IMG/VR virus record: IMGVR_UViG_2645727593_000020
Length of the DNA stretch: 11,399 nucleotides
Strand: one strand, 5' to 3'
Origin: a virus
Lineage: Duplodnaviria; Heunggongvirae; Uroviricota; Caudoviricetes
The translations under genes were made by a program, and so were the position numbers. The notes below the pieces were generated by a model. That model was not told the DNA's origin. It searched no databases and saw nothing but the letters and a program-made list of their open reading frames with translations. Shown one piece after another: positions 1 to 11,399 of this stretch. Within the stretch, counting starts at the first letter, position 1; each line of letters begins with the position of its first letter.

Positions 1-17
1 AACATGAGCAAACAGAC

Positions 18-46
18 AAAAAAAGGGCCAGCCAATTGGCCAGCCC
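18..46 (-). terminator. Putative rho-independent terminator for the minus-strand integrase-fragment/membrane-protein transcript
   Basis: Seen in sequence: GGGCCAGCC-AATT-GGCCAGCCC (25..46) forms an imperfect GC-rich hairpin around the palindromic core GCCAATTGGC. On the minus strand it is followed directly by a 7-nt T run (A run 18..24 on plus). It lies about 150 nt downstream of the stop of the 204..1133 ORF. Confidence 0.4.
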
Positions 47-203
47 TTCTTAACAGGATGTCGCTTAAGCGAAATCTTAGTTAAGACGCTTTTACATGAT
101 ACCATTGATAAACATGCATTTTTCATTATAAACAGTTAGTTATATGTATCACTAGTGTAGTCAAGTGCAGCCATAAACATGCTGTGTGGGCAGATTGTGG
201 ACA

Positions 204-1133
204 CTACTTATTTCCCTGTCCAATCTTACCCGCAACTGCCTCGGTAAGCTTTACTAAGGTTTCAAGTTCATTTTTGTCTAATTTTCTTGCTTCAATAATT
301 TCAGTAGTCTGCCCTGATTCTAGTTTTCCAACTCTTGAGCTAAAATTAATTTTATCCAGAAGGTCTATCATATCGATATCTTTCTGGCTAGCCATTACAA
401 GCTTTATAATGGCATAGCTTTCCTCACGTGAACGTTTTATTGCCTCGTAATAGCGAAACTCATCCATCGTAACCCGATATTGCTTCAAAAAGAAAAATGC
501 GATTAACTCCAAGAAAATCAACACGCCAAAATTAGGGAGAAGATACATTACCTTGGTTACCGCATCATCCTTAGCATCAATTACATGTGATTGAGAATAG
601 AAGAAACCTAATCCAACTATTGCAAAACAAACACCGACTAATAAATAAAGACTACCGCGAGAATATATGTTTTTCGCAAGACCTTCAGAGCTATTAATCA
701 AACCTTTAAGATAAAAATCCAGAGATTCATCTTCATCAGCAGCAGCCCTTTCCTCTTGAGCCTTCTTGAGTAGTTTTATCTCATTTATAATATCGACAAT
801 ATTAAACATCGATGATTTGTCGACTGAATCACTCCCTGTAATTCTCATAAACATTCTTTGGATTGGAGACACACCATAGATAATGGTGTAAACGATTACA
901 AATGACACTGCGAATATTGACCTGATAAAGCTCGGCAAATGTGTAAGATCTGCTCTCGCACTGGGAAATAAATAATAAAAGGTTGAGTCTAATATCCCTG
1001 TAGCAAAAATTACATTTGCAACTAGAAAGACTGCACCTATCTCAACTAAATTATAAAAACCACGAGTGCGTACCCTAATGACTTTGGCCTCGGTCATTCT
1101 TGGAGGTGTTTCGATGGTTGGCTCACTCATCAT
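204..1133 (-). CDS. Hypothetical integral membrane protein, 309 aa, four predicted transmembrane helices with an internal two-fold architecture; function unknown
   Basis: Long ORF in visibly AT-rich DNA. AGGA lies 7 nt upstream of the ATG at 1133. Hydrophobic helices at about aa 26-48, 69-88, 161-179 and 195-216; charged, helix-prone segments at aa 100-160 (KLLKKAQEERAAADEDE) and 217-309. The start overlaps the stop of the upstream integrase fragment by 11 nt. No catalytic motif recognised. Confidence 0.65.
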   Translation of the reverse strand: MMSEPTIETPPRMTEAKVIRVRTRGFYNLVEIGAVFLVANVIFATGILDSTFYYLFPSARADLTHLPSFIRSIFAVSFVIVYTIIYGVSPIQRMFMRITGSDSVDKSSMFNIVDIINEIKLLKKAQEERAAADEDESLDFYLKGLINSSEGLAKNIYSRGSLYLLVGVCFAIVGLGFFYSQSHVIDAKDDAVTKVMYLLPNFGVLIFLELIAFFFLKQYRVTMDEFRYYEAIKRSREESYAIIKLVMASQKDIDMIDLLDKINFSSRVGKLESGQTTEIIEARKLDKNELETLVKLTEAVAGKIGQGNK

Positions 1134-1464
1134 ATAATCCTGTTAAATTAGAAATAGGGTTAAGAGTTACAGCTTCTTCTAAATGATCTGGTGCAAAATG
1201 AGCGTATCTCATGGTTTCCCTAATGTTAGAATGGCCCAAGATTCGTTGCAGTACTAAAATGTTCCCACCATTCATCATAAAGTGACTCGCAAATGTATGA
1301 CGTAACACATTCGTTTTTTGCCCTTCAGCTAACTCTATATCGGTCAGAGCGAGCATTTTCTTGAACTCCTGATAGCAGGGGTGGAACATTTTTCCCTGTA
1401 AAGGAGCCAACTCGTCATATAGCCACCGAGGGATCGGTACTGTACGATTCTTCTTTCCCTTGGT
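1123..1464 (-). pseudogene. Tyrosine recombinase (phage integrase family) C-terminal fragment, 5'-truncated
   Basis: Translation ...[24 protein letters not shown]...NVLRHTFASHF...ILGHSNIRETMRYAHF... carries the C-terminal catalytic-domain landmarks of tyrosine recombinases (GKGxKxRxVPL-like patch, LRH box, GHS, RY with the presumptive nucleophilic Tyr). The N-terminal part with the box I arginine is absent. There is no ATG; the ORF track starts it at a TTG (1410). The upstream limit of homology (about 1464) is judged by eye and is approximate. Confidence 0.6.
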
Positions 1465-1473
1465 TTGGGAGAA
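1448..1473. repeat. Left recombination site of the invertible segment (gix/hix-like 12-2-12 site), hybrid in composition
   Basis: TTCTTCTTTCCC-TT-GGTTTGGGAGAA. The right half plus core is an exact inverted copy of the half-site at 3334..3347 (TTCTCCCAAACC-AA) and resembles hix/gix half-sites as recalled (TTnTCnnAAACC). The outer left half (TTCTTCTTTCCC) lacks the AAACC element. Confidence 0.55.
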
Positions 1474-1812
1474 GCGGCTAAAAGGAATGTAGGGACAGGG
1501 GCGAATCAGATACCTGATATGGGTAGCTTCACGCTTTCTGTTTCAGGTACTGGATATCAAAAATTTCCATCAGGTTTTATTCTTCAGTGGGGCTCAATCG
1601 GCGCACCAGGCATTGCACAGGATGTAGTAACCCATTTCCCGATTGCATTTCCAAACAGATGTCTGCGTGTTTTGGTCTCACAAGACTACACACCAGATAG
1701 CGGGGCTGTTGGTTATATTGCCTGTGCAGGTTTTAGTCCCGACCCGGTTAAATTTATATCCAGAGCCAGTACTCCTGGCCTCGGCGCTTCATTTTTAGCG
1801 TTAGGCTGTTAA
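1462..1812 (+). CDS. Tail-fibre C-terminal variable segment (Sv-like), no own start codon; orphaned from any constant N-terminal part in this window
   Basis: The frame is open from 1423 (a stop precedes it at 1420..1422) with no ATG before an internal Met. The translation GLGE...[15 protein letters not shown]... resembles phage fibre C-terminal domains. The frame begins exactly in the recombination-site core encoding GLGE, which the minus-strand Sv' also encodes at the right site. Confidence 0.5.
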
Positions 1813-1833
1813 TTTAGCTATATGGAGTGAAAA

Positions 1834-2274
1834 ATGAATTACATATATTCCGCGACTACAAACTCTTTCTATCCGCTGGAGATGAAAGAGGATTACACTC
1901 AAGCTGACTCATGGCCAGATGATGCTGTTGAAGTTGATGAGCAAGTGTATATTGAGTTTTCCGGATTACCGCCGAAAGGAAAAATCCGTATCGCTGGAGA
2001 AAATAGTTTTCCTGCATGGACTGAAATTCCACCACCAACACATGAGGAACAGATTGCTGCAGCCGAACTTGAAAAGCAGCAACTGATTAATCAGGCCAAC
2101 GATTATATGAACAGTAAACAATGGCCTGGTAAAGCGGCTATTGGTCGTCTGAAAGGTGAGGAACTGGCGCAATATAATTTGTGGCTGGATTATCTGGACG
2201 CACTGGAACTGGTCGATACTTCCGGTGCGCCAGATATTGAATGGCCTACGCCTCCGGCAGTTCAGGCCAGATGA
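1834..2274 (+). CDS. Tail-fibre assembly chaperone (Tfa family), 146 aa
   Basis: GGAG lies 7 nt upstream of the ATG. The C-terminus ...LVDTSGAPDIEWPTPP... matches the conserved Tfa C-terminal motif (xDTSxAPDIxWP) of lambda Tfa / Mu U / E. coli TfaE-type proteins. It lies directly downstream of the fibre variable segment. Confidence 0.8.
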   Translation: MNYIYSATTNSFYPLEMKEDYTQADSWPDDAVEVDEQVYIEFSGLPPKGKIRIAGENSFPAWTEIPPPTHEEQIAAAELEKQQLINQANDYMNSKQWPGKAAIGRLKGEELAQYNLWLDYLDALELVDTSGAPDIEWPTPPAVQAR

Positions 2275-2848
2275 CATCCGGCGCGGTGCTGGTATCTGTT
2301 GCCGTCACCGCGTCAATGTAATCCAGCGCAGCGTTAAGTCGGGCGGTTTCTGCCTGCGTCAGATTCCGTCCGGCCTGCAATTTCAGCTGAATCAGACTAA
2401 TGGAAGCCATTGCATTATCAATCAGTGACTGACGCTGTGCTTCTGCCGCGCCTACTGCGGCGCTATGCTGTGCCACAGTATCTGTTACCCATTTCTCACC
2501 ATCCCATTCATCGTATGGCGTTAACGGGGCGATAGTGGTTGTATTTTCAGGATAATCACCCGGAGCTGTGATTTCTTTCGATTCTCCTGTTTCTGTGCTA
2601 TAGATGATTTCACCGCGATGGTCTGGCACATATTCCCATGAGTTAAAATCTGCAGAACGGCAGATTGCATAACCAGCTTTATGTGTAACTGGCGCATCTA
2701 AACAAGAACATGCCGGGATACCGACGCCAACCGCAAGATATTCAGTTGACGTGGAAATATATTCCCGTGTTTCACCATCGTAGTTATAAACGGTAACATC
2801 CCCTGCCTTTGTTGCAATAAGCTCACTATTTAATATTGCTTTATGCAT
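2246..2848 (-). CDS. Tail-fibre assembly chaperone, alternative copy (Tfa'), 200 aa
   Basis: The C-terminus ...TATDTSTAPDVIWPELPEA carries the same Tfa motif. The start ATG overlaps the TGA stop of the upstream Sv' (TGATG on the minus strand at 2846..2850). The 3' end overlaps the plus-strand tfa convergently by 29 nt. Confidence 0.8.
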   Translation of the reverse strand: MHKAILNSELIATKAGDVTVYNYDGETREYISTSTEYLAVGVGIPACSCLDAPVTHKAGYAICRSADFNSWEYVPDHRGEIIYSTETGESKEITAPGDYPENTTTIAPLTPYDEWDGEKWVTDTVAQHSAAVGAAEAQRQSLIDNAMASISLIQLKLQAGRNLTQAETARLNAALDYIDAVTATDTSTAPDVIWPELPEA

Positions 2849-3345
2849 CAGGCTGACCTCACGATATAGTTAAATGCAATATTACGCGGACGCGTTTCTG
2901 AGGCTGCGGCACCTAAACCAGCCACTGATTGTTTATATGTTTTAAAGGTTCCATAATCCGGTGCTGGTAATCCGGCATCGTTTGTGTTTCCTCTTTTGAT
3001 AATGTCAGTGCCACTATTTACCCAGCTTTCATCAAAATAGAAATTAATCGTTGCATCAGTCACAATCGTGGATCTTGACGGTAATCCATGAGCATGATCC
3101 TCCGTTGCATACCCCTGAATACTTAAAATAGAGCGACCTGTATCAATCCCCCGTCCGTCATCCCAGCCACGAATAAACTCACCACGTAAATCAGGCAATT
3201 TATTTGCCGGATAAGCCTTTGCCAGTTCCGGGTATTCTTCAGCAGAAAAAGCTGCACCATTGCATTTCAGCCAGCCTGTTGGCGGTGTGGCTGAAGGCCA
3301 CGGAACAGGGACGCCAACAGGTAATGCAGAGCCTTCTCCCAAACC
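2848..3345 (-). CDS. Tail-fibre C-terminal variable segment, alternative copy (Sv')
   Basis: The translation ...VGLGEGSALPVGVPVPWPS...YPELAKAYPANKLPDLRGEFIRGWDDGRGID... is typical of Mu S / P1 S-type fibre C-terminal domains. The ORF-track N-terminus (3346..3444) runs through the recombination site into the invertase start region and is not counted as fibre. The real coding part begins at the crossover (GLGE at 3334..3345). Confidence 0.6.
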   Translation of the reverse strand, partial: GLGEGSALPVGVPVPWPSATPPTGWLKCNGAAFSAEEYPELAKAYPANKLPDLRGEFIRGWDDGRGIDTGRSILSIQGYATEDHAHGLPSRSTIVTDATINFYFDESWVNSGTDIIKRGNTNDAGLPAPDYGTFKTYKQSVAGLGAAASETRPRNIAFNYIVRSA

Positions 3346-3359
3346 AACGTTTAAGAAAA
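3334..3359. repeat. Right recombination site of the invertible segment (gix/hix-like)
   Basis: TTCTCCCAAACC-AA-CGTTTAAGAAAA: two imperfectly inverted 12-bp half-sites around a 2-bp core. It shares 14 bp (TTGGTTTGGGAGAA on the opposite strand) in inverted orientation with 1460..1473. It sits about 55 bp upstream of the invertase start. Confidence 0.6.
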
Positions 3360-3413
3360 TGTAGTTTTCCCCCCTAGCTGGCATCATTTGGGCTTTTGCA
3401 TGAGGGAAAACAA

Positions 3414-3992
3414 ATGCAGGTTGGCTATGTGCGCGTATCAACAAATGAACAAAATACCGCGCTACAGCGTGACGCGCTGGAACGGTCGGGATGTGAGCTA
3501 ATTTTCGAGGATAAAATCAGCGGTAAATCGACAAACAGGCCAAGGTTAAATCGCGCACTCAGGCAACTTAATGCCGGTGATACTCTCGTTGTCTGGAAGC
3601 TCGACAGGCTCGGGCGTAGCATGCGCCATCTTGTCTCTATGACTGAAGAGCTTCGCCAGCGAGGGGTTAATTTCAGAAGCCTGACCGACAGTATTGATAC
3701 CTCAACCCCGATGGGGCGATTTTTCTTTCACATCATGGGCGCTCTTGCAGAAATGGAACGCGAGTTAATCGTCGAACGAACCCGCGCCGGGCTGGATGCA
3801 GCCCGGGCACAAGGCAGGATCGGAGGTCGTAGGCCGAAGCTGACGCCTGATGAATGGGCTCAGGCTGGCCGGTTGATTGCGGCCGGAGAATCCCGACAGC
3901 GTGTTGCACTGATTTTTGATGTGGGCATATCGACGCTGTATAAAAAATTTCCGGCGACAAATCCCGTTGTGTCAGCCACCGGCGAACCCTGA
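3414..3992 (+). CDS. Serine-recombinase DNA invertase (Hin/Gin/Cin/Pin family), 192 aa
   Basis: From ATG 3414 (GAGGG 6-7 nt upstream): MQVGYVRVSTNEQNTALQRDAL...GDTLVVWKLDRLGRSMRHL...RSLTDSIDT...MGRFFFHIMGALAEMERELIVERTRAGL...GRIGGRRPKLT...STLYKK. It has the active-site Ser near position 10, the resolvase catalytic core and a C-terminal helix-turn-helix, colinear with Gin/Hin. The ORF-track start at 3396 is 6 codons longer and less likely. Confidence 0.9.
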   Translation: MQVGYVRVSTNEQNTALQRDALERSGCELIFEDKISGKSTNRPRLNRALRQLNAGDTLVVWKLDRLGRSMRHLVSMTEELRQRGVNFRSLTDSIDTSTPMGRFFFHIMGALAEMERELIVERTRAGLDAARAQGRIGGRRPKLTPDEWAQAGRLIAAGESRQRVALIFDVGISTLYKKFPATNPVVSATGEP

Positions 3993-10676: not shown

Positions 10677-11399
10677 TTAGATTGGTAATGAAAAAGCTAT
10701 CGCCTTGCAGATATGTTGCTTTGTTAACGCAGGATGTGTTGAAGCAAAAAGCGATAAAAAGCTTTTAGCTTCAACCGAATCATCATTAAGCGAAATATTA
10801 TCTTTGATGAATGGATGAAGTGCGATTCCAGCGCTCATAGATAACGGCACATAGTTGATGAATATATCTTCTTTTGTGAGACCTAGCTGGTTTGCTTGTG
10901 CTTCAAATGAATTAGCATCTAAATAATCACGTATACGTTCTTTGGCCTCTGGTCGGAGTCTCGATTCTTGACGCGGCAGAGAAAGCATCTTATCAATATC
11001 TCCCCATGAGATAGGAACCTCAAAATAGCCACCACCTTCTTCCTCTGGAGGTGCCGGGAAATTCACATAAAAATAGTTTTTTTGCTGTGTAGGGTCGTTC
11101 ATGGACTGACGATGATAGTTATAAATACTTCTAATACGGTTGGCCTTGTTATGATGCCGAGCATTTCGAATAACAAGCATCATTAATAATTCAGGTTTCA
11201 AATACCAGTCAGGCTCTAATCCATTGCTTTGCATGTTGTCATACAAATTATGAAAAGCATTAAGTTGTGTATTCAGGCCCGATTCTAAATTGCCAATTGC
11301 TTCAGCACGATCAATAGCCAACAAACGCTGTAGTGACCAGTTAGACTCTAATAAAACCCGAAAGGCCTGTGCAAGATCTTCAAAAGAGTGGGAAAGCAT
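10677..11399 (-). CDS. Hypothetical protein, at least 240 aa, AT-rich accessory gene; 5' end may extend beyond the window
   Basis: Long minus-strand ORF running to the window edge in visibly AT-rich DNA, convergent to ogr. Contains an R-x4-H patch (VIRNARHH, aa 78-83) of the type seen in HEPN-like nuclease folds, and an acidic/Gly patch PPEEEGGG. No confident family assignment. Confidence 0.5.
   Translation of the reverse strand: MLSHSFEDLAQAFRVLLESNWSLQRLLAIDRAEAIGNLESGLNTQLNAFHNLYDNMQSNGLEPDWYLKPELLMMLVIRNARHHNKANRIRSIYNYHRQSMNDPTQQKNYFYVNFPAPPEEEGGGYFEVPISWGDIDKMLSLPRQESRLRPEAKERIRDYLDANSFEAQANQLGLTKEDIFINYVPLSMSAGIALHPFIKDNISLNDDSVEAKSFLSLFASTHPALTKQHICKAIAFSLPI

What the first reader, a model, noticed from the sequence alone, without database searches (positions are those of the whole stretch)
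204..1133. AT-rich four-helix membrane protein coupled to an integrase remnant: candidate single-gene defence or exclusion cargo
The gene is compositionally foreign to the P2-like tail genes. It encodes a protein with an internal two-fold architecture: two transmembrane helices plus a charged helical segment, twice. Its start overlaps the stop of the integrase fragment, and it ends at a hairpin/T-run terminator. Small membrane proteins with this layout in phage accessory positions are often abortive-infection or superinfection-exclusion effectors, and the 2TM-plus-helix unit resembles pore-forming effector modules. I recognise no known family from the sequence alone. After the rearrangement upstream, its transcription may come from read-through across the invertible segment, so expression could depend on inversion state.
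Basis: partly seen in the sequence, partly recalled or inferred. Interest (0 to 1): 0.62.

Follow-up and report, generated by a model that had tools for sequence, protein, structure and literature searches.

The report
Orphan prophage membrane gene beside integrase
This is a real, selectively maintained gene for a four-helix inner-membrane protein of a large unnamed family; it is the last gene of the repressor–integrase operon of P2/186-like prophages, varies sharply between otherwise near-identical phages, and survives when the prophage decays, so it is a good but untested candidate for a new phage-exclusion or abortive-infection protein.

Summary
The ORF (204..1133, minus strand; likely start 1130, 308 aa) is real. 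It has four hydrophobic helices, GC 0.37 against 0.55 for the tail genes, and dN/dS 0.08 against a Citrobacter ortholog. The window is E. coli E2348/69, a P2/186-like prophage remnant at the 3' end of rplS.

In 13 other E. coli genomes and 13 viral contigs the gene follows an intact CI–integrase pair as the last gene before att, so the "integrase remnant" is local decay. The claimed terminator is the host rplS terminator.

The protein matches no Pfam, NCBIfam or PADLOC family, no solved structure and no cultured phage. It matches only PHROG 5157 (unknown function), plus sub-threshold hits to the conflict-system 2TM domain PF20712. The family has about 2,450 representatives across phyla and no conserved partner gene, but it often lies beside defence genes.

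At the rplS site, alleles share only 37–50% identity while the adjacent integrases are up to 96% identical. The N-terminal half varies most. The gene persists intact in Citrobacter, Enterobacter and Cronobacter after the prophage is lost.

My best reading (confidence 0.45) is a lysogen-expressed membrane exclusion or abortive-infection effector of a new family. Function is untested. In E2348/69 the native promoter is deleted.

The parts
204..1133 (-). ORF309 (WP_001294850.1): 4-TM inner-membrane protein; the probable true start is the second ATG at 1130 (308 aa)
   Evidence: the orthologs begin at the second Met
657..1133 (-). Variable N-terminal half (residues 1-159): N-tail, TM1 (27-49, invariant E31), short periplasmic loop, TM2 (68-90, invariant P90), cytoplasmic helical linker
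   Evidence: Top-residue frequency 0.21-0.42. Nucleotide identity 0.46-0.51 between alleles whose flanks are 0.84-0.94 identical. Omega is 2-10 times that of the C-half.
390..656 (-). Conserved core (residues 160-248): TM3 (G167, G174), TM4 (P200, G203, E209, FFFL) and the juxtamembrane helix KQYR..MDEFRYYEAIKRSREE
   Evidence: Invariant columns; top-residue frequency 0.62-0.76; pLDDT 81-92; region matched by PHROG 5157 and by the sub-threshold PF20712 hits
207..389 (-). C-terminal cytoplasmic tail (residues 249-309), ending in an amphipathic helix (276-306)
1138..1141 (-). Shine-Dalgarno AGGA, 7 nt before the ATG at 1130, inside the integrase 3' end
   Evidence: Read directly from the sequence; aligned orthologs
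1123..1473 (-). Integrase pseudogene (C-terminal ~117 codons). In intact relatives it is a 345-aa integrase preceded by CI with a 4-nt gap.
77..90 (.). attL core TTAGTTAAGACGCT, a duplicate of the 3' end of rplS. The attR copy lies 206 bp beyond the right end of the window.
   Evidence: window 1-93 is conserved in all E. coli next to rplS
20..51 (-). Host rplS/yfiB intrinsic terminator (14-bp stem plus T-run). It now ends any int-ORF309 transcript.
1460..1474 (.). Left 15-bp inverted repeat (crossover site) of the invertible tail-fibre segment. Its partner is at 3333-3347. It coincides with the integrase truncation point.
10677..11399 (-). ORF240, the second AT-rich orphan at the opposite (attR) prophage end. 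It is adjacent to ORF309 across attP in the circular phage and is co-retained with the 4TM gene in Enterobacter remnants.

Best explanation
ORF309 is accessory (moron) cargo of a P2/186-like temperate phage lineage that integrates at the 3' end of rplS.

Shown: it encodes an inner-membrane protein with four TM helices. By the positive-inside rule both termini and nearly all non-membrane mass face the cytoplasm. In intact prophages it is the last cistron of a tightly packed CI-int-ORF string that ends at a terminator. It is a hypervariable cassette between a conserved integrase and a conserved att flank. It is kept under purifying selection and outlives the prophage in several genera. Its family is a stand-alone, roughly 300-aa module that recurs at prophage ends and in defence islands across phyla.

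Inferred: it is made in lysogens from the repressor promoter and protects them against other phages, by superinfection exclusion or abortive infection acting at the inner membrane. The conserved C-terminal TM3-TM4 hairpin (intramembrane Glu209, with Glu31 of TM1) and the basic/aromatic juxtamembrane helix would form the oligomeric membrane-active effector. That effector would either be an ion-conducting pore that collapses membrane potential or a block to DNA entry. The fast-evolving N-terminal half would set which invader is recognised or how the effector is gated.

In E2348/69 itself the deletion that removed CI, its promoter and two thirds of int has probably left the gene without its native transcription.
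For: Position and operon: CI (22165-22743), int (21123-22160) and the ORF (20204-21130) lie on one strand with a 4-nt gap and an 8-nt overlap in strain 1190. The same order is seen in a second E. coli prophage and in 13 of 27 IMG/VR contigs, five of them 33.5-34 kb with the gene at the contig end. A terminator follows the gene in both states: the host one at attL and a phage one at the attR side. The int-att interval is reported as a minor P2 defence hotspot (PMC13586616).

Family: 365 clusters at 90% identity and 2,454 representatives at 50% identity. All are about 300 aa, with no fusions and no conserved neighbour.

Neighbourhoods: Lamassu; DRT2, a PD-T4-6-like kinase and PRTase/OLD-TOPRIM; AbiJ-like and TIR-effector-like genes directly adjacent; pAgo, REase-TIR, Shedu SduA, Menshen NsnB, RmrA, mad3 and CapH among 142 flanking ORFs.

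Diversification: int is 93-96% identical while the 4TM protein is 37-47% identical. Block identities are int 0.94, ORF N-half 0.46, ORF C-half 0.61 and att flank 0.90. N-half omega is 0.63-2.07 against 0-0.27 for the C-half among near-identical alleles.

Retention: intact ORFs with only an int stub, or no int at all, are found in three Citrobacter alleles, Enterobacter and Cronobacter. dN/dS is 0.082.

Membrane features. 17 of 64 members give sub-threshold hits to the conflict-system 2TM domain PF20712 on TM3-TM4.
Against: There is no experimental evidence for any function. No significant similarity exists to any validated defence or exclusion protein: PADLOC gives nothing real, Pfam SieB, RexB, Imm and SLATT models are not hit, PDB sequence and fold searches are empty or generic, and the viral structure library is non-significant.

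The argument is guilt by association. No matched control was run for the defence enrichment, and att-adjacent morons can also encode virulence or fitness factors. The pore or injection-block mechanism is inferred from topology and conserved residues only, and the oligomeric state was not modelled. The omega values among close alleles rest on few substitutions.

The gene is rare in E. coli (17 of 5,426 genomes) and absent from 50,697 deposited phage genomes. No promoter was identified for the copy in this window.
Confidence: 0.45

Rival explanations
1. It is a lysogenic-conversion membrane protein unrelated to phage defence. It would benefit the host or prophage in some other way, for example ion or stress homeostasis, envelope modification or colonisation, and is kept for that reason after prophage decay.
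For: Retention under purifying selection in remnants shows benefit but not its nature. There is no homology to any defence protein. Weak chance-level hits to channel or transporter models (Voltage_CLC, Cation_ATPase_C, MCU) cannot be fully dismissed. From my own knowledge, att-adjacent morons in P2-like phages include toxins and virulence factors (e.g. ctx of phiCTX).
Against: Extreme allele turnover next to near-identical integrases and a fast-evolving half are typical of conflict genes, not of housekeeping-like functions. The recurrent defence-island context across phyla points the same way. The periplasmic loops are tiny, so surface modification is unlikely.
Confidence: 0.2
2. It is the membrane effector subunit of a two-part system whose sensor or enzyme partner is encoded separately and varies between loci. 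Candidates are PIN_12, TIR-like, kinase or Mrr-like nuclease genes, and in this phage possibly ORF240, which lies next to it across attP in the circular genome. Alone it would be inert.
For: Many loci have a tightly linked same-strand neighbour: PIN_12 50 bp upstream in Pseudomonas, a TIR-effector-like gene 47 bp upstream (L027) and a PD-T4-6-like kinase upstream (L005), and Mrr_cat-like genes downstream in three loci. ORF240 occurs in the same 17 E. coli genomes and is kept beside the 4TM gene in Enterobacter. SLATT-type 2TM effectors work this way (PMC7159879).
Against: No neighbour family is conserved across loci. Citrobacter and Cronobacter remnants keep the 4TM gene without ORF240. A terminator separates ORF309 from ORF240 in the circular form. 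The neighbours named are themselves plausible stand-alone defence genes of the same island.
Confidence: 0.15
3. It serves the phage's own life cycle and is tied to integration or lysogeny, for example modulating Int or excision, anchoring a complex at the membrane, or controlling lysis timing. It would not be host-protective cargo.
For: It is strictly co-inherited with, and translationally overlapped by, the integrase in E. coli (17 of 17 genomes). The order CI-int-ORF is conserved in 13 viral contigs.
Against: Homologs occur without any related integrase in other phage types, in defence islands and in Bacteroidota, Bacillus and Pseudomonas chromosomes. The gene persists intact where int and the whole phage are gone. 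The lysis cassette is elsewhere in the intact prophage. A core life-cycle gene would not be 40% identical between phages whose integrases are 95% identical.
Confidence: 0.07
4. This rival concerns only the copy in this window. In E2348/69 the gene is a stranded, transcriptionally silent passenger of a recent deletion, with no current function in this strain.
For: CI, its promoter and two thirds of int are deleted. No promoter-like site lies on the minus strand between 1134 and 2188, and sites in the region are at chance level. The protein is identical (same WP accession) to that of intact prophages, so the deletion is recent and retention here says nothing about selection.
Against: Remnants in other genera keep at least ~140 bp of the int 3' end upstream of an intact ORF. 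That is compatible with an internal promoter which the consensus scan would miss in AT-rich DNA. The ORF and its Shine-Dalgarno are intact.
Confidence: 0.4

Closest known systems
Prophage-encoded single-gene membrane exclusion or abortive-infection proteins at accessory loci (P22 SieA/SieB, lambda RexB, HK97 gp15, T4 Imm; P2 lysogenic-conversion genes old, tin, Z/fun)
   Same: It is a small or medium inner-membrane protein encoded by a temperate phage, placed in an accessory slot, compositionally foreign, and predicted to be expressed in the lysogen. Its position corresponds to the int-att interval reported as a minor P2 defence hotspot.
   Different: There is no sequence or fold relationship to any of them: Pfam SieB and other models and PADLOC are not hit. 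At about 300 aa it is larger, with 4 TM helices plus about 160 cytoplasmic helical residues. It sits in the CI-int operon rather than the classic A-Q or tail hotspots. No phenotype is known.
SLATT and related 2TM effector modules of conflict systems, including Pfam PF20712 CyanoTRADDas_TM
   Same: It has a TM hairpin followed by a conserved helical segment and a conflict-system genomic context. 17 of 64 members give weak hits to PF20712 that map on TM3-TM4. SLATT-annotated viral proteins appear among weak Foldseek hits.
   Different: All PF20712 hits are below Pfam's gathering score (24.3 bits) and no SLATT model is hit. There is no linked SMODS, SLOG or TRADD-N gene, and a TIR-like neighbour in only one locus. 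The protein has an extra, variable 2TM N-terminal half and is stand-alone.
PHROG 5157 (phage protein family of unknown function)
   Same: This is the only significant library match: E = 3.8e-9, residues 155-287 against profile positions 180-312 of 331. Length and architecture are the same.
   Different: The PHROG carries no functional annotation, and the match covers only the conserved C-terminal core.
MotA/ExbB/TolQ stator-type proton channel subunits
   Same: The topology is similar (for MotA: 4 TM, N-in/C-in, a large cytoplasmic loop between TM2 and TM3, a cytoplasmic tail). TM helices continue as long cytoplasmic helices, and there are conserved intramembrane acidic, Pro and Gly residues. 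ExbB, TolQ, MotA and PomA chains recur among the non-significant Foldseek hits.
   Different: No member hits Pfam MotA_ExbB at E <= 0.1. Foldseek E >= 0.9 with TM-scores 0.17-0.35. No ExbD/MotB/TolR-like partner gene is linked.

Membership tests
PHROG 5157 | Significant match to the family profile | tested here: met
   E = 3.8e-9, 37.3 bits, residues 155-287 against profile 180-312 of 331. Only the C-terminal core is covered.
P2-like prophage int-att accessory (defence-hotspot) cargo | [quoted passage not shown] | tested here: met
   attL core at 77-90, ORF at 204-1133, int at 1123 onwards. The same order is seen in 13 viral contigs. The hotspot is described in PMC13586616.
P2-like prophage int-att accessory (defence-hotspot) cargo | The encoded system protects against phage | not testable with these tools
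   This needs plaque or EOP assays. No paper or supplement lists WP_001294850.
Known anti-phage defence protein families (PADLOC-DB v2.0.0) | Significant match to a defence-protein HMM | tested here: not met
   The only hit is Cas5a at E = 0.0015, on a helical cytoplasmic stretch, which I regard as noise. The same model in NCBIfam scores below its cut-off.
SLATT 2TM effector domains (Pfam SLATT_1-6) | Match to a SLATT profile | tested here: not met
   No SLATT model appears among the families hit by any of 64 members at E <= 0.1. BFVD hits to SLATT-annotated proteins have E = 0.3-1.7.
SLATT 2TM effector domains (Pfam SLATT_1-6) | Genomic linkage to a nucleotide-signal generating enzyme (SMODS, SLOG, TIR) | tested here: not met
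   No conserved neighbour. One TIR-effector-like neighbour (L027). None in the enterobacterial prophages.
Pfam PF20712 CyanoTRADDas_TM | Score above Pfam's gathering threshold (24.3 bits) | tested here: not met
   17 of 64 members hit at E <= 0.1 with best E = 5e-4, all below threshold, and ORF309 itself does not hit. The recurrence suggests remote similarity of the TM3-TM4 hairpin, but compositional bias is not excluded.
Pfam PF20712 CyanoTRADDas_TM | Association with a TRADD-N domain | tested here: not met
   No fusions among the best 120 and 150 homologs. No TRADD-N neighbour was seen.
MotA/ExbB/TolQ family (PF01618) | Profile match and a linked single-TM partner (MotB/ExbD/TolR type) | tested here: not met
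   No Pfam hit in 64 members. Fold hits are non-significant. No conserved partner.
Holins / lysis cassette proteins | Small TM protein located in the lysis cassette beside the endolysin and spanins | tested here: not met
   The lysis genes (lysozyme, LysB, LysC) lie about 15 kb away in the intact prophage. The protein is about 300 aa, and no holin Pfam or PHROG hit was found.
Internally duplicated (2 x [2TM + helix]) protein | Detectable homology between the two halves | tested here: not met
   hhalign of the N-half profile against the C-half profile gives probability 0.6% and score 13.9.

The most novel reading that the evidence does not exclude
The roughly 2,450-cluster family (PHROG 5157) is a previously unrecognised, self-contained, one-protein anti-phage system. 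A conserved 2TM hairpin plus juxtamembrane helix would act as the membrane-disrupting or entry-blocking effector, and it would be fused to a fast-diversifying 2TM plus helical sensor half. In P2/186-like phages it would be carried as an exchangeable cassette anchored between the integrase 3' end and attP, expressed from the repressor operon, and domesticated by the host at the rplS locus once the prophage decays.
Probability: 0.35. Interest if true: 0.68.

Novelty: new variant of a known kind. Interest (0 to 1): 0.52.

Why it matters
If the defence reading is right, this adds a widespread, single-gene, membrane-embedded immunity family that current defence catalogues (PADLOC v2) miss. It also comes with a ready natural experiment. 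Dozens of alleles sit between near-identical integrases and att sites, so swapping N-terminal halves could map specificity directly. It would give substance to the little-populated integrase-att hotspot of P2-like phages. It would also show that prophage-end cargo can outlive its phage as a domesticated host gene in Citrobacter, Enterobacter and Cronobacter. If the reading is wrong, the gene remains a large, conserved family of membrane proteins of unknown function that is clearly under selection.

Tried and rejected
Family scans. Pfam, NCBIfam and PADLOC scans of ORF309 gave nothing above threshold. The Cas5a hit (E about 1e-3) is on a helical cytoplasmic stretch and I rejected it as noise.

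Phages, plasmids and literature. tblastn of three alleles against 50,697 deposited phages, and of ORF309 against 72,556 plasmids, found no match. Literature and supplement searches for the accession returned nothing. The E2348/69 genome paper is not held. The paper on K139 glo did not give the gene's position, so that precedent is left as recalled knowledge only.

Hypotheses tested and dropped. Internal duplication of the protein was rejected. A conserved partner gene was rejected. Read-through expression of ORF240 from the rplS operon was weakened by a phage-supplied terminator 40 nt after rplS. A promoter in the int stub or the invertible segment was not found by consensus scanning.

Technical note. 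The first half-wise dN/dS script timed out and was rerun.
Full report
**1. What the window is**

Positions 1-1474 are 100% identical to E. coli O127:H6 E2348/69. The annotated record shows a P2/186-like prophage remnant inserted between yfiB and rplS. The window differs from RefSeq only in that the segment ~1475-3332 is inverted. That segment is bounded by 15-bp inverted repeats at 1460-1474 and 3333-3347, next to a serine invertase gene at 3396-3992.

A 14-bp direct repeat (TTAGTTAAGACGCT) at window 77-90 recurs at the stop codon of rplS just beyond the right end of the window, and it marks the att core. Window 1-93 is conserved next to rplS in all 5,426 complete E. coli genomes. The finding therefore lies inside the prophage, 113 nt from attL.

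**2. Checking the observation**

- The ORF 204..1133 (minus strand) is present. RefSeq and the orthologs use the second ATG at 1130, which has an AGGA 7 nt upstream.
- Hydropathy gives four segments, at about residues 27-49, 68-90, 160-182 and 196-217. The charge distribution fits an N-in/C-in topology with very short periplasmic loops.
- An AlphaFold2 model built on 64 homologs is all-helical (pLDDT 74, pTM 0.60). In it TM3 and TM4 continue as long cytoplasmic helices.
- GC is 0.37 against 0.55 for the tail genes.
- The start overlaps the stop of the integrase pseudogene.

Three details need correcting.
- The two halves share a layout but no detectable homology (hhalign probability 0.6%).
- The hairpin/T-run terminator (51..20) is the host's rplS/yfiB terminator. 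It lies beyond attL and about 150 nt past the stop codon.
- The integrase is truncated only in E2348/69.

**3. Native context**

Seventeen of 5,426 complete E. coli genomes carry the gene, and all 17 carry this integrase type. In 13 of them the integrase is full length. In strain 1190, CI, int and the ORF lie on one strand with a 4-nt gap and an 8-nt overlap, inside a complete 186/P2-like prophage.

I take it as established knowledge of P2/186 biology that the repressor-integrase transcript is made in lysogens. Co-transcription of the ORF with it is my inference from the spacing.

A terminator follows the ORF in both phage states. In the prophage it is the host terminator. In the circular form it is a phage-supplied terminator just beyond attP, which in the lysogen terminates the rplS operon instead.

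An IMG/VR scan found 27 viral contigs with relatives. In 13 of them the order is CI - int - 4TM gene - contig end, and five of those contigs are 33.5-34.0 kb.

**4. The family**

A single-sequence search found 117 clusters and a profile search 365 clusters. All carry only uninformative source names ('hypothetical'/'uncharacterised'; two carry an evidently automatic label), have no precomputed Pfam domain, are about 260-400 aa long and show no fusions. An exhaustive search of 1.84 billion representatives found 2,454 at E <= 1e-3 and 320 at E <= 1e-30. Members come from Gamma-, Beta- and Alphaproteobacteria, Bacteroidota, Bacillus, Acidobacteriota and cyanobacteria.

Conservation is concentrated in TM3, TM4 and the juxtamembrane helix (top-residue frequency 0.62-0.76). 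It is much lower in TM1, TM2, the linker and the N-tail (0.21-0.42). The invariant residues include E31 in TM1, G167 and G174 in TM3, P200 and E209 in TM4, and R234 in the motif FFFLKQYR..MDEFRYYEAIKRSREE.

**5. Comparison with known families**

- Pfam, NCBIfam and PADLOC give nothing above threshold for ORF309.
- PHROG 5157 (function unknown) matches the conserved core at E = 3.8e-9.
- The PDB profile search is empty.
- Scanning all 64 aligned members against Pfam shows one recurrent weak signal. 17 members touch PF20712 (CyanoTRADDas_TM, a 2TM module of conflict systems), with best E = 5e-4, always below the gathering score and always on TM3-TM4. I treat this as a lead, not as membership.
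- No deposited phage genome or plasmid carries a detectable homolog.
- No paper or supplement I could search names the protein.

**6. Neighbourhoods**

- Alcaligenes: at a prophage end beside the lysis genes.
- Variovorax: in a P2-like prophage between gpD and the repressor.
- Pseudomonas: beside Lamassu and 50 bp downstream of a PIN_12 gene, in an integrase-bounded island.
- Flavobacterium: beside a DRT2-type reverse transcriptase, a PD-T4-6-like kinase and a PRTase/OLD-TOPRIM protein.

Across about 30 non-redundant loci, clustering of the three ORFs on each side found no conserved partner. Of 142 flanking ORFs, PADLOC strongly matched pAgo, an REase-TIR protein, Drt2, LmuB, SduA, NsnB, RmrA, mad3, CapH and others. 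Directly adjacent genes include AbiJ-like, TIR-effector-like, SieB-like, Fic and Mrr-like proteins. I did not run a matched control, so the enrichment is qualitative.

**7. Behaviour at the rplS site across Enterobacteriaceae**

- A second E. coli prophage carries a 46%-identical allele in the same slot.
- Three different Citrobacter alleles (86%, 50% and 41% identity to ORF309) sit between rplS and yfiB with only a ~370-410-bp integrase stub and no other phage gene.
- Enterobacter keeps the 4TM gene with a ~140-bp int stub, next to a 91%-identical copy of the window's other orphan, ORF240.
- Cronobacter keeps the 4TM gene directly after rplS and the phage terminator, beside an IS element and an AAA_15/AAA_21 ATPase pair.

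The E. coli and Citrobacter 86% pair gives dN 0.068, dS 0.83 and dN/dS 0.082.

Block-wise identity shows a sharp step. Between the two E. coli prophages the integrase (141-400 nt upstream) is 0.94 identical and the att-side flank 0.90, but the ORF N-half is 0.46 and the C-half 0.61. In viral contigs, integrases 93-96% identical to the E. coli one sit next to 4TM proteins only 37-47% identical.

Half-wise dN/dS is always higher in the N-half. It is 0.10-0.32 against 0.03-0.11 in diverged pairs, and 0.63-2.07 against 0-0.27 among 95-97% identical alleles. The latter values rest on few changes.

**8. Interpretation**

Four facts point together to a conflict gene that benefits the lysogen: placement in the lysogenic operon, stand-alone modularity, defence-rich neighbourhoods, and cassette-like allele turnover with a conserved core and a fast-evolving half. 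Persistence after prophage loss adds to this.

Almost all non-membrane mass is cytoplasmic, so receptor masking at the surface is unlikely. The conserved TM3-TM4 hairpin, with an intramembrane glutamate and a basic/aromatic juxtamembrane helix, is the plausible effector. I commit to a lysogen-expressed inner-membrane exclusion or abortive-infection protein at confidence 0.45. The choice between a pore and an entry block is unresolved.

The rivals are a non-defence conversion function (0.2), an effector that needs a variable partner, possibly ORF240 (0.15), and a phage life-cycle role (0.07).

For the copy in this window specifically, the native promoter is gone. No promoter-like site is seen upstream, and sites across the invertible segment are at chance level. 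It may therefore be silent in E2348/69 (0.4, not exclusive of the others).

**9. Novelty and score**

The kind of element is known: prophage accessory membrane proteins that exclude other phages, and the P2 int-att hotspot. The protein family is not in any defence catalogue I could test and has no characterised relative. The allele-cassette behaviour and the repeated domestication at rplS are new observations as far as the searched literature goes. I rate it a new variant of a known kind, with interest 0.52. It is a solid, testable candidate rather than a surprise.

Noticed in passing
window 1460-1474 and 3333-3347; segment 1475-3332; invertase gene 3396-3992: The tail-fibre segment is inverted in the window relative to RefSeq NC_011601.1, so both orientations exist in sequenced E2348/69 DNA. 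The integrase pseudogene is truncated exactly at the left 15-bp crossover repeat. This suggests that the Cin/Gin-type invertase, acting on a pseudo-site in int, produced the ~20-kb deletion that removed CI, the early genes, the head genes and the constant part of the tail-fibre gene.
   Followed up: partly
window 10677-11399 (minus strand): ORF240 is a second AT-rich (GC 0.39) orphan with no Pfam, PADLOC or NCBIfam match. It lies between ogr and attR. It is present in exactly the same 17 E. coli genomes as ORF309. It is adjacent to and co-oriented with ORF309 across attP in the circular phage. A 91%-identical copy is retained next to the 4TM gene in Enterobacter hormaechei after the prophage is lost.
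   Followed up: partly
window 20-90; L001 25540-25618: The phage integrates into the last codons of rplS, between rplS and its native terminator. It supplies a replacement terminator (11-bp stem plus T-run) 40 nt after rplS at attR. The displaced host terminator ends up just downstream of ORF309 at attL.
   Followed up: yes
L049 8942-11295 (Cronobacter turicensis): At the same rplS-yfiB spot, next to the 4TM homolog and an IS element, lies an AAA_15/AAA_21 ATPase (492 aa) followed by a 289-aa protein with no Pfam hit. This two-gene layout is reminiscent of PARIS or Gabija-type systems. The spot behaves as a small defence islet.
   Followed up: no
L011/L012/L014 6800-7951; L034 5614-6765 (Pseudomonas): A PIN_12-domain gene sits 44-50 bp upstream of the 4TM homolog on the same strand in several Pseudomonas islands. 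It is not in PADLOC. It could be a genuine two-gene module in that clade.
   Followed up: partly
L002 27471-29137 and 38007-39350 (E. coli strain 1190 intact prophage): The intact relative carries further unannotated cargo. There are two hypothetical genes in the classic A-Q defence hotspot and a DUF4062 protein inserted between the morphogenesis and baseplate genes. Its replication endonuclease gene has an internal stop.
   Followed up: no
L043 and L047 (int homology starts at L002:21535) and L007 (21521): Three Citrobacter remnants with very different 4TM alleles share nearly the same integrase breakpoint. This implies one old deletion followed by allele replacement through recombination in the conserved flanks, or a preferred breakpoint.
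   Followed up: partly
L062 (IMG/VR contig, 15,965 bp): One viral contig shows the variant order CI - 4TM gene - integrase, with the integrase 114 bp downstream of the matched part of the 4TM gene instead of upstream.
   Followed up: no
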